Origin: a virus
Taxonomy: Duplodnaviria; Heunggongvirae; Uroviricota; Caudoviricetes
IMG/VR virus record: IMGVR_UViG_2917855067_000004
DNA: 29,767 nucleotides
Direction: 5' to 3' (one strand)
Both the position numbers and the translations under genes were made by a program. Within the stretch, counting starts at the first letter, position 1, and the number at the start of each line of letters is the position of its first letter. The notes under the pieces are model-generated. The model was given only the letters and a program-made list of their open reading frames with translations, did no database searches and was not told the origin of the DNA. Positions 1 through 29,767 of this stretch are shown here, piece by piece.

Positions 1-213
<213 letters not shown>

Positions 214-7149: not shown

Positions 7150-7572
7150 TTACTCCGGTTTAACCGGCCACTCGATATCCGGTGCCGTGGAAGTGTCGAC
7201 TGCGTTCAGCGCCTGAATGTATTTCATCCACGCAATGAGGCTTGCTTTGTCAGCATCGCTGATGATGCCGAGCTGCAGCTCAGTCTGCCACAGGCTTATG
7301 TGCTCTTTTGCAGAAAACAATAATTCGCTGCGCTTTGCTTCGACCTGTGCAATCAGTTGCGCTTCTGTAAGCGGAGGAATATCTATCCAGCACGGATAAC
7401 CTTTTTTATCATTACTTCTAATTTTCCCATCAGGAGGCACCCCACTGAACACCTCAAAAACCCCCTCATCAACGTCAACGCCACTTTCCGGCCAGACATC
7501 TTCTTTCAAATAATCATCTTTCAATGTCCACGGATAAAAAGCATTTGTTGCTGCGCTATATCTGTATTTCAT
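7150..7572 (-). CDS. G: Tail fibre assembly protein G
   Basis: ORF downstream of H; start placed at ATG 7570-7572 (MKYRYSAATNAFYPW...), 2 nt after the H stop and with a GGGG Shine-Dalgarno; the track's longer 7629 start overlaps H. Confidence 0.7.
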   Translation of the reverse strand: MKYRYSAATNAFYPWTLKDDYLKEDVWPESGVDVDEGVFEVFSGVPPDGKIRSNDKKGYPCWIDIPPLTEAQLIAQVEAKRSELLFSAKEHISLWQTELQLGIISDADKASLIAWMKYIQALNAVDTSTAPDIEWPVKPE

Positions 7573-7574
7573 CG

Positions 7575-8537
7575 TCAATACCCCACTGCAATATACGAGA
7601 GGTTGAATCCTCCGGCACCACTCATCCACGCCTGAAACCCTGTTCGGGTTTGTGAGGCGGTAACCACACCATAAGACATAGCTGTACTCGGTACCGCGCC
7701 ACCGGTAGTAACATCTGACCAGGTTAGGTTAACCACAGCACCTGAAGCAAACGCTACCGGGAATGTTGCACTGGATAAATTCGACCCAATTCCAAATCCA
7801 AGTGAGCCTTTTTGAATAATTAACCCGCCAACAGTTTTAACCCAGTTAGCCCCATAACTCTGATAGCTCATGTCAGGAATTTGCCCCTGACCAACACCAA
7901 CATTTTTCGTTGAGGCCGTTCCTAAACCGAGGTTTTTAATGACTTCTGTCGTTAATCCTGCGTCGGCTATTTCTTTAAGTGCATTTGCGATGAGCAAATA
8001 CTGCTTATGCGGATTCGCGGTAGCAACGTGGTTTTTCATCAGGTCATCAGCATAGGCTTTCACCTCGATAATCTTGTCGTCAACATACTGACGCGTTGCC
8101 AGCACGACCGACGGGTCGATTTTCAGGGTGATGGCCGATGTGCTCGACACAATCAGAATCATGCGAATGGTCTGTGTGCGGCCGCTTCCCTCCTGCAATT
8201 GCGGCTTGTAGGTCTCCGGGCAGTTCGCCACGGCAATCAGAATGCCGTCGTCATCGTAGAGACCAATCTCGCGGATCCAGAAACCGCCCTCATTCTCGGG
8301 AATAATCTGTTCCGCGATAATCTGGTTGGTATTGGCCGGGTCAACGGTCAGCAGGTTCAGTGGCGCGATGCGCTTTTGGTTAATGAGCTTCGTCTGCGCC
8401 GGGTCAGGGGTCGGCAGCGTACCATTCGCATCACCGACGGCCATCTGCGTCAGGTTGAGTCTGGTACCGAGAGCCGCCGCGTTCGCCAGCCGCGCCGCGC
8501 CCTGATTGGTCAGAATGGCAAAATATTTTGCGGTCAT
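7575..8537 (-). CDS. H: Tail fibre protein H (short form, 320 aa)
   Basis: N-terminal ~150 aa (…MAVGDANGTLPTPDPAQTKLINQ…GGFWIREIGLYDDDGILIAVANCPETYKPQLQEGSGRTQTIRMILIVS…) resembles the conserved P2 gpH N-domain; the C-terminal part differs. Confidence 0.8.
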   Translation of the reverse strand: MTAKYFAILTNQGAARLANAAALGTRLNLTQMAVGDANGTLPTPDPAQTKLINQKRIAPLNLLTVDPANTNQIIAEQIIPENEGGFWIREIGLYDDDGILIAVANCPETYKPQLQEGSGRTQTIRMILIVSSTSAITLKIDPSVVLATRQYVDDKIIEVKAYADDLMKNHVATANPHKQYLLIANALKEIADAGLTTEVIKNLGLGTASTKNVGVGQGQIPDMSYQSYGANWVKTVGGLIIQKGSLGFGIGSNLSSATFPVAFASGAVVNLTWSDVTTGGAVPSTAMSYGVVTASQTRTGFQAWMSGAGGFNLSYIAVGY

Positions 8538-10397: not shown

Positions 10398-11029
10398 AAC
10401 GGAGCCCCCGTTTGCCCGCCGCTGTCGCCGGGGTGTTTATGGAGGTGGAGTACCTTGCCATTAGACGACAGTGACCCGCCGGAATGTTCGACATTGCCTT
10501 TCATCGTGCCGCCCTTTTGCACCTCAAGCGTCGCCGTCGTCAGCTTATTAGTGCAAATCACCTCAGGGGTGTCGAGGGTGATACTGGTCGAGGCTTTCAC
10601 CAGTACCAGCGGCACGGTTGCGGTGATGGACTTCGATGCCGTCACGTCGGCAGTTTTGATGCCGCTGACCGTCAGCGCGCCGGTCTCGGGTTCGTACTCA
10701 ATGACCGCACCATCAGGGAAAACCACATGCCACGCATCCGCCGAGGCAGACGGGGCGGGGTTATCGTCGGAGAAAATACCCGGCAGCACGAAAGCAGTAT
10801 CGAGCTCGCCACCGATTGCCAGCAGCAGAACCTGCTCACCGACCGAGGGAGCCCACCACGTCCGCGAACGACCGGCGCGGGTGGTCAGCCAGTTCAGCCA
10901 TGTAGTCTGGATCCCGCCGCTTTGTACGCGGCACAGCCCCTGCACGGTATCAACCTCAGTCACCACACCTGAGCGGATGAGGTTGCGAATCGCGCGCGCG
11001 AGCTCCTGTATCGTGGATAACGTATTCAT
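10394..11029 (-). CDS. V: Baseplate spike/assembly protein V
   Basis: 211 aa, same size and position as P2 gpV. Confidence 0.85.
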   Translation of the reverse strand: MNTLSTIQELARAIRNLIRSGVVTEVDTVQGLCRVQSGGIQTTWLNWLTTRAGRSRTWWAPSVGEQVLLLAIGGELDTAFVLPGIFSDDNPAPSASADAWHVVFPDGAVIEYEPETGALTVSGIKTADVTASKSITATVPLVLVKASTSITLDTPEVICTNKLTTATLEVQKGGTMKGNVEHSGGSLSSNGKVLHLHKHPGDSGGQTGAPL

Positions 11030-11097
11030 AGTGCAAGGATGCCTCTGGTCTGGAGTCGCGCCAATTCGCGCGGCTCCGGTGGTGGTTCACACAATAT

Positions 11098-11547
11098 TTA
11101 TTTGCCGAGGTGCCTGATAATGACGTCTTCAATCATCTGCTCATCGTCGCGGGTGAAACCGAGTAACGGGCGCGCCTCGTACTGCACATCCCGGCTGTTG
11201 CGGTTTGGTCTGTCTTTGAGCCCGTACTGATGCACCCGCGCCATGCGCTGCACCTTGCCGGTAAACTCCACCACCGCCGCACTGTCGCTGCCTTTGGCTT
11301 TCATAAAGCGACTGGTGCGCAGTTTGGCGAACATTTCACGTTTAATCCGACCTTTCTTGCTCCGCACCGGCTGGCGCTTTCGTGCCGCATACGGGGTGCC
11401 GTCGGGTGCCTGCTGGCGCTTGATGCGCTGTTGCTGACTGGTCCGCAACTTTTTCGCAATCTCAGCCGCCATTTGCCGACGCGCCGCCGGTGACAGGCTG
11501 GCAATCAGACCGGCAAGACGTTCCTGCAGTGCGGTTAACTCACTCAT
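11098..11547 (-). CDS. S: Tail completion protein S
   Basis: 149 aa, position and size match P2 gpS. Confidence 0.8.
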   Translation of the reverse strand: MSELTALQERLAGLIASLSPAARRQMAAEIAKKLRTSQQQRIKRQQAPDGTPYAARKRQPVRSKKGRIKREMFAKLRTSRFMKAKGSDSAAVVEFTGKVQRMARVHQYGLKDRPNRNSRDVQYEARPLLGFTRDDEQMIEDVIIRHLGK

Positions 11548-19849: not shown

Positions 19850-19857
19850 TCCCCCTC

Positions 19858-19881
19858 AAGCCGCCAGCATGGCGGCTTTTT
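19858..19881 (+). terminator. Intrinsic terminator after Q
   Basis: Hairpin AAGCCGCC-AGCAT-GGCGGCTT followed by TTTTT. Confidence 0.6.
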
Positions 19882-20025
19882 CATACCCCGCCACCATCAC
19901 GCCTCAGACGCGCCACGCGCGCACGACCACACAAGACCACCTACGAACCGACAGCATCCACTACAGCGCCATCACGACGCGCTCAGACGATAATTTTTAT
20001 TATTACGCACCACCGCTGGCGCGCA

Positions 20026-20044
20026 ATGCTTTCCCCGCCACGCC
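20026..20044. other. cos site (19-nt cohesive-end sequence of P2/186 type)
   Basis: The reverse complement reads GGCGTGGCGGGGAAAGCAT, which matches the 186 cohesive end as I remember it (P2 differs at 2 positions); it sits downstream of Q as expected. Confidence 0.75.
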
Positions 20045-20204
20045 TGCCCGCTTTATAGGGCGGTTTTAATGCAGTTGCATGATCACTCTGGATCCGCGCC
20101 AGCTCAGGCGGCGCACGGCCAGAACGGGCCCCCCCGGCGCATGCAAAACCATGCACCTGTTGCATGCACGGCTAAAAAACAGGGAAATCGCGTAAAAATG
20201 GCAT

Positions 20205-20247
20205 AAAAAAAAACCGGCATTCGCGGTGCCGGTTTCGGTCTGATTTT
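20205..20247. terminator. Bidirectional intrinsic terminator (strongest for the minus strand)
   Basis: A9 run, hairpin CCGGCA-TTCGCGG-TGCCGG, then a T-rich run; on the minus strand the hairpin is followed by U9. Confidence 0.6.
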
Positions 20248-20254
20248 GTCGCGA

Positions 20255-20356
20255 TTACTGGCCGCGCAATGCGCTGATAACACTATTGAGGCACATGCTG
20301 GCAACAATCAGCAGAAAAATTGTCGTCCACGGATTTTCATAAACGAGAGATAACAT
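20255..20356 (-). CDS. Hypothetical 33-aa single-TM peptide (MLSLVYENPWTTIFLLIVASMCLNSVISALRGQ)
   Basis: ATG at 20354-20356 with AAAGGA upstream; ~20-residue hydrophobic core; stop TAA at 20255-20257, directly followed by the strong terminator. Below the ORF-track length cutoff; not matched to a known family. Confidence 0.4.
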   Translation of the reverse strand: MLSLVYENPWTTIFLLIVASMCLNSVISALRGQ

Positions 20357-20372
20357 ATTGATATAGATCCTT

Positions 20373-20564
20373 TTATTTGTGCATTCTGATGTGGTTTAAC
20401 AGGTGTTTGATAATGGTCGTAAGCTCATCTTTACTGGCGTGCTCTACCATTTTTGCGGTGTAGCTTTCCACCTCGCGAGAGCTCAGGTCGTTATTTAAAG
20501 CCATTACAGTCAGCTTTTTTGCCCAATCGGCAAATGGGTCTATCGATGAAAGGGAATTATGCAT
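20373..20564 (-). CDS. Hypothetical 63-aa protein (MHNSLSSIDPFADWAKKLTVMALNNDLSSREVESYTAKMVEHASKDELTTIIKHLLNHIRMHK)
   Basis: Internal ATG at 20562-20564 with a GAGG Shine-Dalgarno 9 nt upstream; 16 nt upstream of the 33-aa peptide gene; AT-rich. The 91-aa track form starts at a weaker site. Confidence 0.5.
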   Translation of the reverse strand: MHNSLSSIDPFADWAKKLTVMALNNDLSSREVESYTAKMVEHASKDELTTIIKHLLNHIRMHK

Positions 20565-20995
20565 GTCCAAAAACCTCGAATTATTTAACCAGCAGACGGC
20601 GGAAATCTTTGCGGTGTTATGGGATAACTTCCCGGTGCCACAGGTCATTACCTACGAAAAATTTAAACGCCGCGCTACCTGATGACTACTTTGACCAACT
20701 TAACTCACCGGAAATGAAAGCACTGAATCAGTTGCGCAGTGTGGTTGAGGGTACATTCACTTTTCTCAGTGAAAACGGCTACATCCAGTACGGAACAGAC
20801 CACCAGACCTATTTTTATGATGTGCGCCTGACCGAGAAAGCACTCGCCGTGCTTAACAAAAAGCCCGAGGCGCTCGGCGGTAATGAAACAATGGGCGATA
20901 AGATTATCAGTGCAGTGAAAGACGGGACGCCGGGAGTGATTGCCGGTGCGGTGACAAACCTGCTTACCCTCGGTGTCAATCTGGTAACCAGTTAA
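20563..20995 (+). pseudogene. Frame-disrupted hypothetical gene: 39-aa frame-1 ORF (20563-20682) plus ~105-aa continuation in another frame to 20995
   Basis: ATG 20563 with AAGGGA 7 nt upstream gives MSKNLELFNQQTAEIFAVLWDNFPVPQVITYEKFKRRAT then tandem TGATGA; protein-like sequence continues one base out of frame (LPDDYFDQLNSPEMKALNQ...GVIAGAVTNLLTLGVNLVTS) to a TAA at 20993-20995. Confidence 0.4.
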
Positions 20996-20996
20996 C

Positions 20997-21052
20997 GCCT
21001 CGCGGGGCGTCGTTGTTCAACCCCGTCAGCACTGAAAGCGAGTTTCAGCGCT
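20997..21052. repeat. Structured repeat element R1 (GC stem-loop plus 10-bp hairpin with GCGAG loop)
   Basis: GCCTCGCGGGGCGTCGTTGTTCAACCCCGTC then AGCACTGAAA-GCGAG-TTTCAGCGCT; homologous to R2 about 405 bp away. Confidence 0.5.
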
Positions 21053-21062
21053 GAGACGTTTG

Positions 21063-21272
21063 CTATCGTCGACGTGGTGGAGGTGCGTATTTTGTCGGTC
21101 TGCTGATGCTATCCAGCTTGCCGCAATTATCCCTGACTATTTCGGCACACCCGACCAGCTCGGTGGGTGTCAAATTCTCATTGACCATTATCTGCTGCAG
21201 GCGATGAACGATAGCCATTAACTTAATATTTCTGGTCTGGTGCTGCGGTATTTCACCTGGTAGTCGATGCAT
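21063..21272 (-). CDS. Hypothetical 69-aa protein
   Basis: ATG at 21270-21272 with a GAGGG Shine-Dalgarno 7 nt upstream; lies between R2 and R1; no family recognised. Confidence 0.45.
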   Translation of the reverse strand: MHRLPGEIPQHQTRNIKLMAIVHRLQQIMVNENLTPTELVGCAEIVRDNCGKLDSISRPTKYAPPPRRR

Positions 21273-21401
21273 ATTATCACCCTCAATGAATTTTAATCAG
21301 TGCCGTCAAAACGCCACTATAAAACCCTCTCAGGTCATGCCTCATTCATCACTGGCGTGTCATCAATAGCACATTGAGAAATTTTGAAAGGCAGGACTAA
21401 A

Positions 21402-21455
21402 GCCTCGTGGGCTCGTTACTCAACCCCGTCGACGCAAAAAGCTAGTTTTTGCGCC
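21402..21455. repeat. Structured repeat element R2 (homologue of R1; hairpin with GCTAG loop)
   Basis: GCCTCGTGGGCTCGTTACTCAACCCCGTC then GACGCAAAAA-GCTAG-TTTTTGCGCC; stem differs from R1 by base changes that preserve pairing. Confidence 0.5.
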
Positions 21456-21471
21456 AACACGGTTATCATGT

Positions 21472-21702
21472 TTAACGCCAGCTATCGTCTTCCCAAATCT
21501 CTTGTAATATGCCGCTTAATGTTTCTTTGTCTGCTTCTTTATCGAATCCGATAACCTCTACACCAGTCATTGACCCTTTCTTGACGTTAACTTTTATTGC
21601 AGGAAAAACGCATTGTACTCGATGTGTTATTTCATTCTGAAAAGCATCAATGATCTGTTGCCCTAATTTTTGTTCTTTATCCAACGTGATATTGATTCTC
21701 AT
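21472..21702 (-). CDS. DinI-family protein (likely the C-terminal part of a Tum-like SOS-inducible antirepressor)
   Basis: 76 aa MRINITLDKEQKLGQQIIDAFQNEITHRVQCVFPAIKVNVKKGSMTGVEVIGFDKEADKETLSGILQEIWEDDSWR resembles E. coli DinI (MRIEVTIAK...ILQETWE) from memory. Confidence 0.8.
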   Translation of the reverse strand: MRINITLDKEQKLGQQIIDAFQNEITHRVQCVFPAIKVNVKKGSMTGVEVIGFDKEADKETLSGILQEIWEDDSWR

Positions 21703-21705
21703 AAT

Positions 21706-21888
21706 CTAATCAGCCTTATAAAAATTATCATCTTCGGTTTCGTTATTCTCGCTGTTTGCTAGGTCTGCAATGAGAGTGAGCGCGAGCTTTAAGTCTGATG
21801 GCTTGCAGTTTGCAATCAGAGATACCTCGGCAATAAATTGCACACAAGCCCACTTTTGCTGCGTTCGGCTGAAATGTTCGTCAACCAT
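21706..21888 (-). CDS. Hypothetical 60-aa protein, first gene of the LexA-box operon (possible Tum N-terminal part)
   Basis: ATG at 21886-21888 with AGGAGG 6 nt upstream; ends at a TAG that is in frame with, and one codon before, the DinI-like ATG. Confidence 0.55.
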   Translation of the reverse strand: MVDEHFSRTQQKWACVQFIAEVSLIANCKPSDLKLALTLIADLANSENNETEDDNFYKAD

Positions 21889-21907
21889 GGAATCCCTCCT
21901 ACAGGGT

Positions 21908-21927
21908 TACTGTATGTTTATACAGTA
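21908..21927. promoter_or_regulatory. LexA operator (SOS box) upstream of the orf60/DinI-like operon
   Basis: TACTGTATGTTTATACAGTA: CTGT-N8-ACAG with palindromic flanks, about 20 nt upstream of the orf60 ribosome-binding site. Confidence 0.8.
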
Positions 21928-22001
21928 GCACGTATTGGTAAAAGATGGGAAGAAAAAAAACGAATAGGGCGATTGTCGTATGTACATGATATGGATATAA
22001 A

Positions 22002-25817: not shown

Positions 25818-26327
25818 TCATACCAAACCAAATGTTGCGCCGATGCCGGTCATGGTATCAACCACGCTCGACATTGCCGGGTTAGCCTGTAGACGCGCCT
25901 GTAACGCCAGCGCCGACAGAGACAACATGCGGATGCCTGCATTAACACTCTCAACCATGTTGTGTTTGCGGTCAGAGGTCATACGTTCATTTGATACCGC
26001 ACCGCTCGCCAGTTCGCCGAGTTCACTCATTGCGCGCATCACATAAGACTGCAATTTCTCTTTAGCCAGCTCATTAACTGGCACGCATGGCAGACAATGT
26101 ATCTGCGCCAGAAAGCCATCAACGAGGGTTGAGTCTTCGGTCAGGTCAGTCAGCAGCCACAATTCAGGCGGTGTGAATTGGTGAGGCTGTTCTGGGTTGA
26201 GCTTGTTACGTAACGTTTGAACGTTCATACCCGCACGCTCGGCCAGCTTCGCCATGTTGTGACGCTGCGCAAAAGCCCGGCACGCTTCGTCATAGTGAGG
26301 ATGTTTAGAAATCTGAAAATCAAACAT
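25818..26327 (-). CDS. cII: CII-like transcriptional activator (186 type)
   Basis: Start moved to ATG 26325-26327 with GAGGG 9 nt upstream, giving 169 aa MFDFQISKHPHYDEACRAFAQRHNMAKLAERAGMNVQTLRNKL...; matches 186 CII length and my recollection of its N-terminus. Confidence 0.8.
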   Translation of the reverse strand: MFDFQISKHPHYDEACRAFAQRHNMAKLAERAGMNVQTLRNKLNPEQPHQFTPPELWLLTDLTEDSTLVDGFLAQIHCLPCVPVNELAKEKLQSYVMRAMSELGELASGAVSNERMTSDRKHNMVESVNAGIRMLSLSALALQARLQANPAMSSVVDTMTGIGATFGLV

Positions 26328-26359
26328 GGTTAAATTCCCTCTAACTTGCATAATCAAAT

Positions 26360-26731
26360 TCAGTTAAGAGCGATGCGGTGGTCGATGTAGCGACAATCAA
26401 TCGCTTGCTGGGTTAGTTTGTCGCGCCATGCTTTCACGTTTACGAGGGTGCGGCTTCGTTTTCCAGCCTCTTCCTTGTTGGAAAAGTCTTTAGTTGGAGC
26501 TTTGAGGAGGATTCCCTCATCAAGCCATTGCCAGACCAGCCGCTCGCTTACACCGCGAGTGGCGGCAAAGTCTTTCACTGTCATTGTGTCTGACATAGCG
26601 GAGCGGATCATTGTCTGCAGAGCTGGCAGCATAGCGGTAACGATCGCATCAAACTGAGCCGGATCTAACAGCACAGTTTGATTTTGTGAGTTTTGCGAAT
26701 CATGCGTCGAGATTGATTTTGCATCTGACAT
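26360..26731 (-). CDS. apl: Apl/Cox-like excisionase and transcriptional regulator (start uncertain)
   Basis: Divergent from cI; HTH-like ...MTVKDFAATRGVSERLVWQWLDEGILLKAP...; the 123-aa ORF is longer than 186 Apl (87 aa), so an internal start is possible. Confidence 0.65.
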   Translation of the reverse strand: MSDAKSISTHDSQNSQNQTVLLDPAQFDAIVTAMLPALQTMIRSAMSDTMTVKDFAATRGVSERLVWQWLDEGILLKAPTKDFSNKEEAGKRSRTLVNVKAWRDKLTQQAIDCRYIDHRIALN

Positions 26732-26844
26732 ATCGCATTATCTCCTGTTGTTTGAAATGTTGTGCAGTGGTGTGCATCTTGGTCGATGAACACCAATATA
26801 GATCGCTAAATTTTTGTTGTAAACAAAATTCTTGTTGGTGCTAT

Positions 26845-27690
26845 ATGTCTAAAAATGATGTCAATGCGTCTGCCGCTTTAGAGCGAGTCCTTTCTGCATA
26901 CGGTTTTAAGCAGCAAAAAGAACTAGCTGAAAGGCTTGGTATTCATGCGAACAACGTAAGTAGTTGGCTTGCAAGAAACGTGATCCCAAGCAACGTTTTC
27001 GTTGAGTGCGCTCTTGATACAGGGGCTGACCTGCGATGGCTTGTTAATGGTGAACTTGCAAATACAAAATATGACGAGAGGCAAGTAAATCTCAAAGGTA
27101 AGCAACTCTATGATGAAATCATGGCTAATGGAGGAAGGGCGGTTCTGCGTCGTATTCTCGATGCGTATGGTTTTACTATGCAAAAAGAGTTGGGAGATTT
27201 ATTAGGCATATCCTCTGGTACTATAAGCACTTGGGTCAGACGCGATTTTTTCCCTGGTGATGTGGTTGTAACCTGCGCCCTCGATACAGGCGTATCGTTA
27301 GAATGGTTATCTACGGGAAAAGGCCAGATGCGTAACAGCAAGGATGGTGAGTCAGCTAATTCTTTAACGATTAGAAAATGCCGCCTTGAGGCAGGTGAAC
27401 TCAAGGATATCGGGCGTTGGACTCCTGATGTCTCTATGGTTCCGGCAAACACTGATGATTTAGTCTTTATTGATGGCGTGAGTGCATCTTGGCTTGTTGA
27501 TTGTTCTAACTCAAAGATAGGAAATGGTCGTTGGCTTATTGGTATTGATGGTGCGCTCGATATTTTTGACGTAATCAGATTGCCCGGAGGAAAGGTCAGG
27601 CTATCAAATAAGTCTGTTGAGTTTGAATGTAATCTTTCTGATATCACACCATCAGGTGCCGTTTTCTTTACTTTGGAAAAGCATGTTTAA
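26845..27690 (+). CDS. cI: CI immunity repressor (186 type) with tandemly duplicated N-terminal DNA-binding domain
   Basis: Start placed at ATG 26845 (MSKNDV...); two homologous ~65-aa segments (...LSAYGFKQQKELAERLGI...CALDTGADLRWLVNGE and ...LDAYGFTMQKELGDLLGI...CALDTGVSLEWLSTGKG) followed by a ~125-aa C-terminal domain. Confidence 0.75.
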   Translation: MSKNDVNASAALERVLSAYGFKQQKELAERLGIHANNVSSWLARNVIPSNVFVECALDTGADLRWLVNGELANTKYDERQVNLKGKQLYDEIMANGGRAVLRRILDAYGFTMQKELGDLLGISSGTISTWVRRDFFPGDVVVTCALDTGVSLEWLSTGKGQMRNSKDGESANSLTIRKCRLEAGELKDIGRWTPDVSMVPANTDDLVFIDGVSASWLVDCSNSKIGNGRWLIGIDGALDIFDVIRLPGGKVRLSNKSVEFECNLSDITPSGAVFFTLEKHV

Positions 27691-27699
27691 GGGGCAGTA

Positions 27700-27963
27700 A
27701 TGAAAAAGTTTTTATTTGGAATGGTCTGTATTGCACTTTCTTCCTCAACATTTGCTGCTGAAAAGTTCAAAGAGATTGATAGTAAATCTTTTGGTGGTAA
27801 ATGGCCGCTAACCTTTGAGCATGCAAAGGTATCTTGTGTAAATCGTCACTACGTTTTTGTTTATGATATTGATACTGATGAACGATATCCCCTAAGCGGT
27901 ATGGCTAAAAAACGCCGTCAAATCAGGAAAAATGGAAGGGCGAGATTTAAAAGAAGTGCTTAA
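27700..27963 (+). CDS. Small secreted protein (signal peptide; tentative YebY/DUF2511-like), between cI and int
   Basis: AAGGGG Shine-Dalgarno 5 nt before the ATG; MKKFLFGMVCIALSSSTFA signal peptide; mature part ...GGKWPLTFEHAKVSCVNRHYVFVYDIDTDERYPLSGMA... and a basic tail; AT-rich. Confidence 0.6.
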   Translation: MKKFLFGMVCIALSSSTFAAEKFKEIDSKSFGGKWPLTFEHAKVSCVNRHYVFVYDIDTDERYPLSGMAKKRRQIRKNGRARFKRSA

Positions 27964-28063
27964 AAAAAGACCCTGACGATCCATTAGAAAGCGCTGATAT
28001 AGGCCCGGTTTTCAGTGAAGCTATAGCGCTGTGTGAATAATATTTTTTTGTCTCGGTGTAGCT

Positions 28064-29113
28064 ATGACAGTAAGTAAGCAAAAAAATGGTAAATGGTTAT
28101 GCGAGCTTTATCCAAATGGCCGGGAAGGACGGCGTATACGTCGTCAATTTAATACCAAAGGTGAGGCCGAGGCATTCGAATCATTTACCAAAAGCGAGAG
28201 TGAATATAAGCCGTGGCTCGGCAAGAAAGAAGACCGCCGACGCTTAAGTGAGATTATCCAGCTTTGGAACAATTTGCACGGTCAGGCGTTAGTCGCCAGT
28301 AAGTCGCGGTTGGCAAAGCTTCAAATCGTGTGTAATGGTTTAGGTGACCCTATCGCATCCCGCCTTACTGCTAAAGATTGGGCTCACTATCGTGATAAAC
28401 GGCTTCGTGGTGAAATAGATAATGGATATCACAAAGACCCTGCAAAATGGATCGCCAAACCGATAACCGTCAACCGTGAGCAGCAGTATTTAGAAGCTGT
28501 TTTCAATGAGCTAAAGCGGCTAGGGGAATGGACCCAACCTAACCCGCTTGATGGTATTCGTATATTTAAAGAAGCTGAGAAGGAAATGTCATGGCTGACG
28601 CTTGAACAAATCCCGCAGCTTTTATCGGCATGTCATCAGTATGGACATGAAGACCTTACGCAGATTGTCGAGGTTTGTTTGGCGACTGGTGCCCGATGGG
28701 GTGAGGCCGAACGAATAACCCGTCCTCAACTTTCGCCCTACAAACTTACTTTCACAAAAACTAAAGGCAAAAAAAATCGCACAGTCCCGATCCCAAAATG
28801 GCTTTACGAAAAGTTATCTACGCGTCAGGGGCGAATGTTTAAGCCTTGCTATCAGGAGTTCAAAAAAATGCTTTTGCTTACTGATATCGAGCTGACTGAA
28901 GGGCAGAAAACGCACGTTTTACGTCACACCTTTGGTGCGCATTTTATGATGAATGGCGGCAATATCCTTGTACTCCAGAAGATACTCGGTCACGCAAATA
29001 TTCGTGAAACAATGAAGTATGCGCACTTTGCTCCTGACCATCTTGAACAAGCTGTCACCTTAAATCCGTTGTCACTGTGTATTGGCGACAACGTGGCGGC
29101 AGAGGTTGCGTAA
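28064..29113 (+). CDS. int: Tyrosine integrase (P2 family)
   Basis: 349 aa; C-terminal catalytic region ...HVLRHTFGAHFMMNGGNILVLQKILGHANIRETMKYAHF (R/H-x-x-R...Y); adjacent to attR. Confidence 0.93.
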   Translation: MTVSKQKNGKWLCELYPNGREGRRIRRQFNTKGEAEAFESFTKSESEYKPWLGKKEDRRRLSEIIQLWNNLHGQALVASKSRLAKLQIVCNGLGDPIASRLTAKDWAHYRDKRLRGEIDNGYHKDPAKWIAKPITVNREQQYLEAVFNELKRLGEWTQPNPLDGIRIFKEAEKEMSWLTLEQIPQLLSACHQYGHEDLTQIVEVCLATGARWGEAERITRPQLSPYKLTFTKTKGKKNRTVPIPKWLYEKLSTRQGRMFKPCYQEFKKMLLLTDIELTEGQKTHVLRHTFGAHFMMNGGNILVLQKILGHANIRETMKYAHFAPDHLEQAVTLNPLSLCIGDNVAAEVA

Positions 29114-29194
29114 CGCTGCAATTCACTGCATTAAAAATTGCATTAACTAATTGTTTTATATGGTAAGTGTTTGTTTGTTATGGGGTGTTAATAG

Positions 29195-29207
29195 GAGCGT
29201 CTTAACT
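29195..29207. other. attR core (13-nt identity with attL)
   Basis: GAGCGTCTTAACT followed by AAG, which would restore a native ...AAC TAA rplS ending in the uninterrupted host site. Confidence 0.55.
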
Positions 29208-29239
29208 AAGATTTCGCTTAAGCGACATCCTGTTAAGAA

Positions 29240-29268
29240 GGGCTGGCCAATTGGCTGGCCCTTTTTTT
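29240..29268. terminator. Host bidirectional intrinsic terminator between rplS (native position) and yfiB
   Basis: GGGCTGGCC-AATT-GGCCAGCCC perfect stem followed by T7 on the plus strand. Confidence 0.6.
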
Positions 29269-29285: not shown

Positions 29286-29767
29286 TTACGGTGCACTAAT
29301 CACCACAGCGACGCGGCGGTTCTCGGCGCGACCCTGTGCGGTCTTGTTACTGGCGATGGGGTATTTTTTCCCTAAGCCTGAGTGGTGAGATTGCTGCGAG
29401 GAATTTGTCCACCTTCTGCCCACGCATCGGCGACGACATTTGCCCGCTTCAGCGATAAAGCTTCGTTGTAACTGTCTTCGCCGTAATTGTCGGTATGTCC
29501 ATCCATACGGGCATGGGTTAAGCCCGTGGAGGTCAGTTTTGCGGCCATGGTCTGGATCTGTTGCTGACTTTCCGGGAGCAGTTTGTAGTCATTTTTAGCA
29601 AACAGAATGGTATCAGATAAGCCCAGCGACCAGTCGCCAGCGGATTCAGTAAAACCATAAGACTGCATAGCGGCGACTTGTTCTGGAGTAAACTTCCCTT
29701 GTGGTGACTGGCAGCCAGTCAGTATCAGTGAAGAGAACACCAGGGGAACTACCAGTTGCTTTATCAT
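29286..29767 (-). pseudogene. yfiB: OmpA-family lipoprotein YfiB, disrupted by a 1-nt deletion (or homopolymer sequencing error) near 29376-29378
   Basis: ORF 29372-29767 gives MIKQLVVPLVFSSLILTGCQSPQGKF...SNLTTQA then stop; shifting one base continues GLGKKYPIASNKTAQGRAENRRVAVVISAP to a TAA at 29286-29288, matching the expected OmpA-like C-terminus. Confidence 0.75.

What the first reader, a model, noticed from the sequence alone, without database searches (positions are those of the whole stretch)
27700..27963. Secreted small protein encoded between cI and int
This 87-aa ORF has a strong ribosome-binding site and a classic signal peptide. It sits in the lysogenically expressed cI-int operon and in AT-rich DNA, the typical position for lysogenic-conversion or superinfection-exclusion cargo. 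It tentatively resembles YebY/DUF2511 periplasmic proteins but ends in a basic tail.
Basis: partly seen in the sequence, partly recalled or inferred. Interest (0 to 1): 0.45.

Follow-up and report, generated by a model that had tools for sequence, protein, structure and literature searches.

The report
Frameshift-broken prophage yebY-like gene
The 87-codon ORF is the front part of an ordinary 112-codon prophage gene for a small periplasmic YebY/DUF2511 protein, and its odd basic tail is out-of-frame reading caused by two extra A's, probably sequencing errors.

Summary
The ORF exists at 27700-27963, with a Shine-Dalgarno site, a Sec-type signal peptide and low G+C, between cI and int of a 186/PSP3-like prophage. 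The host is Escherichia sp. E3356 (cryptic clade II). It is not an 87-aa protein with a basic tail. It is a 112-codon DUF2511/YebY-family gene (27700-28040) broken by two single-A insertions in A runs: A5 to A6 at 27907-27912 and A6 to A7 at 27962-27968.

An independent contig that is 99.8% identical differs only by these two gaps and four substitutions, and it encodes the intact protein. All other homologues are 111-112 aa and end in a conserved Cys that the 87-aa form lacks.

The source genome is a 40x Ion Torrent assembly. The yfiB gene next to the prophage carries a frameshift seen only in that project's data. The breaks are therefore most likely homopolymer artefacts (about 75%), otherwise a recent pseudogene.

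The family, its periplasmic location, its fold and its cI-integrase context are already published. What the phage-borne copy does has not been tested. Low interest.

The parts
26845..27690 (+). cI repressor gene (281 aa; two tandem Phage_CI_repr HTH domains plus Phage_CI_C), the first gene of the lysogenic operon
   Evidence: Pfam PF07022 x2, E=8e-49, and PF16452. Called as a gene in the source assembly.
27689..27694 (+). Shine-Dalgarno-like AAGGGG, 5 nt before the ATG, overlapping the cI stop codon
   Evidence: Read directly from the sequence.
27700..27756 (+). Signal-peptide coding part (MKKFLFGMVCIALSSSTFA, predicted cleavage after A19)
   Evidence: n/h/c-region anatomy and the -3/-1 rule. 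Published analysis predicts signal peptides for the vast majority of family members, and E. coli YebY is reported as periplasmic (PMC8689200).
27700..27963 (+). The 87-codon ORF as deposited: codons 1-70 are authentic, codons 71-87 (KRRQIRKNGRARFKRSA) are read out of frame
   Evidence: Pfam and PHROG profiles match only up to about residue 74. The exact 87-aa protein is on record from one contig only.
27700..28040 (+). Full span of the yebY-like (DUF2511, phrog_2950) gene: 112 codons plus stop once the two extra A's are removed
   Evidence: The restored translation equals P0016 exactly. Pfam DUF2511 covers positions 6-87 of 87, E=2.8e-13. phrog_2950 covers 1-112 of 112, E=2e-47.
27907..27912 (+). 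First frame break: A6 here, A5 in the 99.8%-identical intact allele
   Evidence: blastn of L009 against the window. E. coli alleles read AAGAAC at this place.
27911..27961 (+). Middle segment, still coding NAVKSGKMEGRDLKEVL in frame +1
   Evidence: Three-frame translation. Identical to the homologues.
27962..27968 (+). Second frame break: A7 here, A6 in the intact allele
27969..28040 (+). C-terminal segment DPDDPLESADIGPVFSEAIALCE plus stop in frame +2. It holds the conserved C-terminal Cys (Cys111).
   Evidence: The Cys aligns with YebY's C-terminal Cys in 7n0j.
28064..29113 (+). Tyrosine integrase gene (349 aa)
   Evidence: Pfam Int_N and Phage_integrase.
29235..29266 (+). Terminator-like hairpin plus T run after int: 14 stem pairs, the longest stem among the sites listed for the scanned stretch
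29195..29207 (.). 13-bp att core GAGCGTCTTAACT (right copy; the left copy is at 199-211, at the 3' end of rplS). It lies well downstream of the ORF, so the ORF is not att-arm sequence.
   Evidence: The empty site is seen in L006.

Best explanation
The ORF is the 5' 62% of a conserved 112-codon accessory gene of 186/PSP3-like prophages. That gene encodes a small Sec-exported, disulfide-stabilised periplasmic protein of the YebY/DUF2511 fold, and it is probably co-transcribed with cI and int in lysogens. In this deposited sequence the frame is broken twice by one extra A in an A run (A5 to A6, then A6 to A7). The first break produces the Lys/Arg-rich 'tail' and an early stop. Because the genome is a 40x Ion Torrent assembly, the two extra A's are most likely homopolymer-length errors, and the real phage most likely makes the normal 112-aa protein.

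Shown: family membership, fold, signal-peptide anatomy, gene context, and the two insertions relative to an intact near-identical allele.

Inferred: that the insertions are artefacts; that the gene is co-transcribed with cI; and that the protein acts in the periplasm of the lysogen as a small binding or modulator protein, by analogy with YebY (which damps YebZ/YobA copper import) and MlbQ (proposed to bind a lantibiotic).

The confidence given (0.75) is for the whole statement including the artefact part. That the ORF is a frame-broken copy of the 112-codon yebY-like gene is close to certain (about 0.97).
For: - L009, an independent Logan contig from SRR25169919, is 99.8% identical over 2994 nt. 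It has 4 mismatches and exactly two gaps, both single A's in A runs, and it encodes an intact 112-aa protein.
- My frame-restored translation is found letter for letter in the protein collection (P0016).
- The full-length homologues found are 111-112 aa; the one shorter hit (P0009, 94 aa) is itself a broken allele. There are 546 family representatives, and among the best 150 listed nearly all matches run to profile position 111-112.
- No homologue carries the basic tail. The 87-aa protein is on record from one contig only.
- The slippery-looking runs are not conserved: site 1 reads AAGAAC in E. coli alleles and GTTGAT in phage SI22.
- The source is Escherichia sp. E3356, sequenced on Ion Torrent with single-end reads at 40x.
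- The neighbouring yfiB has a 1-nt deletion. Its truncated product is found only in three Logan assemblies whose SRR numbers adjoin those of this project, so they probably belong to it. The exact restored 160-aa YfiB is present on 34 contigs, in sources that name it for Escherichia whittamii and other Escherichia.
- Assemblies of sister runs carry homopolymer indels in rplS, rimM and trmD. The NCBI assembly of sister strain E4736 has these genes intact.
- A second assembly, from SRR6148328, is 100% identical to the window over 4101 nt and probably comes from E3356's own reads. Its contig stops at 27945, inside this gene.
- Family and fold: Pfam DUF2511 E=2.8e-13; PDB YebY 7n0j E=6e-6. The AlphaFold model of P0001 (95% identical, pLDDT 73.5) matches 7n0j with TM 0.75/0.88 and rmsd 1.5 A, then MlbQ.
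Against: - The two breaks cluster. Ninety-one homopolymer runs of 5 or more bases in 37 other intact genes of the window show no frame-breaking error, whereas 2 of 6 runs in this gene do. If errors fell evenly across runs, both landing in this gene has a chance of about 0.3%. Some local cause is needed, such as low coverage of 38%-G+C DNA, or the changes are real.
- The independent assembly of what are probably the same reads also shows A6 at site 1, so most reads probably support it.
- Truncated alleles broken near the same KK codons occur in Salmonella assemblies (P0020 on 18 contigs, P0009, P0025). Genuine inactivation of this gene therefore happens in nature.
- No raw reads could be inspected.
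Confidence: 0.75

Rival explanations
1. The two A insertions are real slipped-strand mutations. The gene is then a recently inactivated pseudogene in this prophage. Its 87-aa product lacks the C-terminal Cys and is probably unstable.
For: - Both changes fall in the one clearly dispensable gene, while 37 other phage genes are intact.
- A6 is reproduced in a second assembly that probably comes from the same reads.
- Truncated alleles recur in Salmonella.
- Replacing either Cys of YebY abolished its expression (PMC8689200), so the truncated form would be non-functional, as expected of a pseudogene.
Against: - Only 4 substitutions separate the window from the intact allele over 3 kb. Two independent indels within 55 nt in so short a time is unlikely without a mutator background.
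- The platform is known for exactly this error type (plus general knowledge of Ion Torrent).
- The yfiB frameshift beside it is confined to assemblies that appear to come from the same project.
Confidence: 0.21
2. The 87-aa protein with a basic C-terminal tail is a genuine, functional new variant: a secreted half-domain with a cationic tail, for example one active on membranes or nucleic acids.
For: The ORF is open, has an SD site and a signal peptide, and NCBI annotates it as a protein (WP_240781957.1).
Against: - The tail is exactly the +1-frame reading of the conserved coding sequence.
- The downstream frames still encode the family's C-terminus without stops.
- It is a singleton among 15 billion proteins.
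- It lacks helix 101-111, strand 93-97 and the disulfide partner Cys111 of the fold.
Confidence: 0.02
3. The A runs are programmed frameshift or phase-variation sites that switch the gene on and off.
For: Breaks occur at A runs. Other broken alleles lie near the second run.
Against: - The runs are short (5-7 bases) and not conserved among homologues.
- Two successive +1 shifts would be needed to make the full-length protein.
- All intact homologues are single ORFs.
Confidence: 0.02

Closest known systems
E. coli YebY (PDB 7n0j), the DUF2511/PF10709 protein of the yobA-yebZ-yebY copper-uptake operon
   Same: - Same Pfam family and fold.
- Signal peptide and about 11-kDa mature size.
- Conserved Trp, and a Cys pair equivalent to YebY's Cys48-Cys113.
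- PMC8689200 already reports family members encoded between a phage CI-type repressor and a XerD-like recombinase in Enterobacteriaceae.
   Different: - Only about 26% identity to YebY.
- Encoded in a prophage lysogeny operon, not next to yobA/yebZ.
- Copper binding and any effect on YebZ are untested for the phage copies.
- In this window the gene is frame-broken.
PSP3 gp28 and the DUF2511 proteins of Salmonella phages SW9/SI22/SEN1, Escherichia phage Midge and Klebsiella phage RCIP0057 (phrog_2950)
   Same: - Orthologous 112-aa genes, placed between cI and int in SI22, in 186/PSP3-like (Eganvirus-type) phages.
- E. coli prophages at the same rplS-yfiB site carry it between cI and int, at 87% DNA identity.
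   Different: 48-65% protein identity to the listed phages. Those copies are intact; this one carries two 1-nt insertions.
MlbQ, lantibiotic self-resistance lipoprotein of Microbispora (PDB 2mvo, 6qfp)
   Same: Same fold (Foldseek E=4e-4, TM 0.65). The disulfide is in the same place (PMC8689200).
   Different: MlbQ is a lipoprotein with a long linker and sits with ABC-transporter genes. The phage protein has no lipobox and no such neighbours.
Phage 186 orf69 (CP69)
   Same: A small accessory ORF carried in the same lysogenic cI-int operon, so it is a positional analogue.
   Different: It lies after int rather than between cI and int, and tblastn with the restored protein found no match in the 186 record.

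Membership tests
DUF2511 / YebY family (PF10709) | Profile match above Pfam's gathering score | tested here: met
   The 87-aa ORF scores 24.5 bits against a cut-off of 21, covering profile positions 6-50 only. The restored protein scores 50.5 bits, covering 6-87 of 87.
DUF2511 / YebY family (PF10709) | N-terminal signal peptide (extracytoplasmic protein) | tested here: met
   n/h/c-region anatomy with TFA|AE cleavage site and no lipobox. This was a heuristic check only; SignalP was not available.
DUF2511 / YebY family (PF10709) | Two strictly conserved Cys forming the stabilising disulfide (Cys48-Cys113 in YebY) | tested here: not met
   For the ORF as deposited, only Cys46 is present; the partner is lost to the frameshift. 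For the frame-restored gene the feature is met: Cys46 and Cys111 are invariant or nearly invariant and align with YebY's pair.
DUF2511 / YebY family (PF10709) | YebY fold (four-stranded antiparallel sheet packed by helices) | tested here: met
   Tested on the intact 95%-identical homologue P0001. The AF2 model has pLDDT 73.5. Foldseek against 7n0j gives TM 0.75/0.88 and rmsd 1.5 A over 92 columns. The 87-aa form lacks the last strand and the last helix.
phrog_2950 (phage protein family, function unknown) | Full-length profile match | tested here: met
   Restored protein covers 1-112 of 112, E=2.4e-47. The deposited ORF covers only 1-74 of 112.
AZY-operon YebY (copper-import modulator) | Encoded with yobA (CopC) and yebZ (CopD) | tested here: not met
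   The neighbours are cI and int. The same holds in all related loci fetched.
AZY-operon YebY (copper-import modulator) | Copper binding, or an effect on YebZ-dependent copper uptake | not testable with these tools
   Needs biochemistry. For E. coli YebY, see PMC8689200 and PMC11923076.
MlbQ-type lantibiotic immunity lipoproteins | Lipoprotein signal peptide and linkage to immunity ABC-transporter genes | tested here: not met
   No lipobox. No transporter genes nearby.
Known anti-phage defence / superinfection-exclusion proteins | Match to a described defence-protein model | tested here: not met
   No PADLOC hit at E<=0.01. This does not exclude an undescribed exclusion function.
Programmed ribosomal frameshift / phase-variable gene | Conserved slippery tract, with both frames used in homologues | tested here: not met
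   The tracts are not conserved. Homologues are single ORFs.

The most novel reading that the evidence does not exclude
Phage-borne YebY homologues made constitutively from the cI-int lysogeny operon may be true lysogenic-conversion factors. They could act in the periplasm by damping host YebZ/YobA copper import, or by sequestering an envelope-acting peptide or an incoming phage component. On this reading, the frame-broken alleles at the A tracts (here and in Salmonella) reflect real, recurrent switching-off of that function rather than sequencing noise.
Probability: 0.12. Interest if true: 0.4.

Novelty: already known. Interest (0 to 1): 0.08.

Why it matters
It matters mainly as a quality-control result. 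A feature that looked like an unusual secreted protein with a cationic tail is an ordinary family member read out of frame, in an Ion Torrent draft genome. RefSeq currently carries the 87-aa form as a protein (WP_240781957.1).

One modest biological point remains. A YebY-fold periplasmic protein is a regular passenger of the lysogeny operon in one subgroup of 186-like prophages of Escherichia, Klebsiella, Enterobacter and Salmonella, and nobody has tested what it does for the lysogen.

Tried and rejected
- I looked for the two single-frameshift intermediates (91 aa each) and for ten possible C-terminal fragments that an independent assembly of the same reads might have yielded. None is on record, so the read-level state of the second A run could not be established.
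- The exact look-up of the window's integrase found only the NCBI contig.
- The genome-contig scan with the family alignment returned a single locus, in Enterobacter vonholyi. The peptide patterns it used were too narrow for a survey of gene contexts.
- NCBIfam and PADLOC gave no hits.
- The promoter scan found no more sites than shuffled sequence (5 against 5.6). It did not identify a pL-type promoter, so co-transcription with cI rests on analogy with phage 186.
- I considered a high general indel error rate across the window and rejected it. Thirty-seven other phage genes align in a single frame over the conserved parts of an E. coli relative's proteins, with no frame break.
- I considered that the region might be att-arm sequence and rejected it. 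The 13-bp core lies at 29195-29207, downstream of int.
- A literature search for 'YebY' with 'prophage' found no functional study of phage-borne copies.

Full report
**What is in the sequence**

The window holds a complete 186/PSP3-like (P2-family) prophage. It is inserted between rplS (1-213) and yfiB (29289-29767, minus strand). A 13-bp direct repeat, GAGCGTCTTAACT, lies at 199-211 and 29195-29207.

At the right end the order is apl-like gene (26360-26731, minus), cI (26845-27690), the ORF in question (27700-27963), int (28064-29113), and then a terminator-like hairpin with a 14-pair stem (29235-29266).

The ORF is real as an open frame. It starts with ATG, 5 nt after an AAGGGG that overlaps the cI stop codon. 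Its first 19 residues have textbook Sec signal-peptide anatomy: MKK, then the hydrophobic core FLFGMVCIAL, then SSSTFA|AE, with no lipobox. Its G+C is 38%, against 53% for the window. Pfam DUF2511 scores 24.5 bits against a threshold of 21.

**The basic tail is a frameshift product**

A three-frame translation shows that the family's C-terminal half is still encoded just downstream, in the other two frames. NAVKSGKMEGRDLKEVL is in frame +1 (27911-27961), and DPDDPLESADIGPVFSEAIALCE plus a stop is in frame +2 (27969-28040).

Intact 112-codon genes lie in the same place in six E. coli prophages (87% DNA identity) and in Salmonella phage SI22. DNA alignment with two of those E. coli genes and with SI22 shows two 1-nt insertions in the window.

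The decisive comparison is with L009, an independent Logan contig from run SRR25169919. It matches window 26229-29224 at 99.8%. The differences are:
- four substitutions;
- exactly two gaps, both a single A in an A run;
- GCTAAAAAC in L009 against GCTAAAAAAC in the window (27907-27912);
- CTTAAAAAAG in L009 against CTTAAAAAAAG in the window (27962-27968).

L009 encodes an intact 112-aa protein. That protein is letter-for-letter the sequence I had reconstructed by deleting one A at each site (P0016).

The 87-aa product is on record from one contig only, the source assembly. The full-length homologues found are 111-112 aa; the one shorter hit (P0009, 94 aa) is itself a broken allele. Among 546 family representatives at 50% clustering, nearly all of the best 150 matches run to the last profile positions. 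Profiles match the deposited ORF only up to about residue 74: Pfam positions 6-50 of 87, phrog_2950 positions 1-74 of 112. They match the restored protein end to end.

The tail (KRRQIRKNGRARFKRSA; the last 18 residues carry net +10) is what A-rich coding sequence gives when read one base off.

**Artefact or real mutation?**

The window comes from contig PDIE01000013.1 of Escherichia sp. E3356, a cryptic clade II strain. The genome announcement states that the 16 strains were sequenced on Ion Torrent with single-end reads, E3356 at 40x, and assembled with MIRA and SPAdes (PMC6639607). Homopolymer-length miscalls are the characteristic error of that platform (general knowledge).

Three observations show that such errors survive in this data set.

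1. yfiB next to the prophage has a 1-nt deletion relative to E. coli. Its truncated 131-aa product is found only in three Logan assemblies whose SRR numbers adjoin those of this project. The exact restored 160-aa protein is on 34 contigs, in sources that name it for Escherichia whittamii and other Escherichia.
2. Those sister-run assemblies differ from one another by run length inside essential genes: rplS T6/T7/T8 and rimM T5/T4. They also share a C2-to-C1 change in trmD. The NCBI assembly of sister strain E4736 has these genes intact.
3. A second assembly, from SRR6148328, is 100% identical to the window over 4101 nt and probably comes from E3356's own reads. Its contig ends at 27945, inside this gene. 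That fits read heterogeneity or thin coverage there.

Against a simple artefact reading, several points stand.
- Ninety-one homopolymer runs of 5 or more bases in 37 other intact genes show no frame-breaking error, whereas two of the six runs in this gene do. If errors fell evenly across runs, the chance of both landing here is about 0.3%. A local cause is needed, or the changes are real.
- The second assembly also shows A6 at the first site.
- Truncated alleles broken near the same Lys-Lys codons exist in Salmonella assemblies (P0020 on 18 contigs, P0009, P0025).

I put the artefact at about 75% and a genuine recent pseudogene at about 20%.

Either way the 87-aa form is not a functional variant. 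It lacks the last strand, the last helix and the C-terminal Cys. For E. coli YebY, replacing either Cys abolished expression (PMC8689200).

Programmed frameshifting or phase variation is unlikely. The runs are short and are not conserved among homologues: site 1 reads AAGAAC in E. coli alleles and GTTGAT in SI22. Two successive +1 shifts would also be needed.

**What the intact gene is**

- The restored protein hits Pfam DUF2511 over the whole profile (E=2.8e-13).
- It hits phrog_2950, listed as 'unknown function' (E=2e-47).
- It hits the crystal-structure sequence of E. coli YebY (7n0j, E=6e-6), residues 33-111 against 15-93, ending at the C-terminal Cys.
- An AlphaFold model of the 95%-identical Klebsiella homologue P0001 has pLDDT 73.5 and pTM 0.61.
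- That model superposes on YebY with TM 0.75/0.88 and rmsd 1.5 A. [quoted passage not shown]
- Invariant W35, C46 and near-invariant C111 correspond to the conserved Trp and the disulfide pair described for YebY.

It is therefore a member of the YebY family: a soluble periplasmic protein of about 10 kDa held together by one disulfide.

**Context**

The gene sits between cI and int in every related locus I fetched. These are E. coli prophages at the same rplS-yfiB site and Salmonella phage SI22. tblastn also finds homologues in PSP3 (gp28), SW9, SEN1, Midge and Klebsiella phage RCIP0057.

Phage 186 itself has cI and int overlapping with nothing between them, and carries a different small ORF (orf69) after int. 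Its annotation shows that pL and pE transcribe this 'lysogenic operon'. Expression of the yebY-like gene in lysogens is thus a reasonable inference from gene order, the 9-nt gap after cI and the lack of an intervening strong terminator. It is not shown here.

**Likely mode of action**

Shown or strongly supported: export to the periplasm, the YebY fold, and a place in the lysogeny operon.

Inferred: the protein acts in the lysogen's periplasm as a small binding or modulator protein.

The two characterised relatives suggest candidates. YebY lowers YebZ-dependent copper accumulation and binds copper weakly when reduced (PMC8689200, PMC11923076). MlbQ is proposed to bind the lantibiotic NAI-107 (cited). 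A role in superinfection exclusion is possible but has no support; there is no PADLOC hit. I rate any specific function as low confidence.

**Novelty**

[quoted passage not shown] RefSeq names the homologues DUF2511 proteins. The one feature that made this copy look unusual is a frameshift, probably a sequencing error. The finding is ordinary and scores low.

Noticed in passing
window 29289-29767 (- strand), break near 29377: yfiB is split by a 1-nt deletion (GGG to GG on the coding strand) relative to E. coli. The truncated 131-aa product occurs only in Logan assemblies of runs whose SRR numbers adjoin this Ion Torrent project's. The exact restored 160-aa protein is on 34 contigs, named for Escherichia whittamii and other Escherichia. 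Probably a platform artefact.
   Followed up: yes
window 199-211 and 29195-29207: A 13-bp direct repeat, GAGCGTCTTAACT, marks the prophage ends. The phage integrates at the 3' end of rplS and supplies a replacement end (stop TGA instead of TAA). The empty site is seen in sister strains (L006).
   Followed up: partly
window 26845-27690: The cI repressor is 281 aa, with two tandem Phage_CI_repr HTH domains plus the CI C-terminal domain. The annotated cI gene of phage 186 is only 579 nt. The duplicated-HTH form is shared by the related E. coli prophages.
   Followed up: no
window 19850-22000: The variable cargo region between portal gene Q and replication gene A differs from the E. coli relative, which has 249-aa and 275-aa hypothetical genes there. 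Here there are ORFs of 180 aa (20453-20995, +) and 91 aa (20373-20648, -), neither with a PADLOC hit, plus a largely ORF-poor stretch at 19870-20300.
   Followed up: partly
window 7150-8537 (- strand): Tail-fibre gene H matches the relative only over its N-terminal 190 residues, and the assembly protein G only over its last 67 residues. This is a swapped host-range cassette, as is usual in P2-like phages.
   Followed up: no
L006, L007, L008 (Logan assemblies of SRR6148330/26/24): Probable sister Ion Torrent runs give contigs with run-length differences inside essential genes: rplS T6/T7/T8, rimM T5/T4, and trmD C2 to C1 in all three. The NCBI assembly of sister strain E4736 (L019) has these genes intact.
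   Followed up: yes
P0009, P0020, P0025 (Salmonella enterica assemblies): Truncated alleles of the same phage yebY-like gene (90-95 aa, ending ...EVLKKT or ...KK[N/T]LAIH) break at the Lys-Lys A tract that is also the window's second break site. P0020 is on 18 contigs. The tract may be a natural hot spot for inactivation.
   Followed up: partly
L005 18519-19355 (E. coli TUM14697 prophage): The closest E. coli relative carries a pentapeptide-repeat protein gene inserted between baseplate gene V and gene S. It is absent from the window (11029-11098).
   Followed up: no
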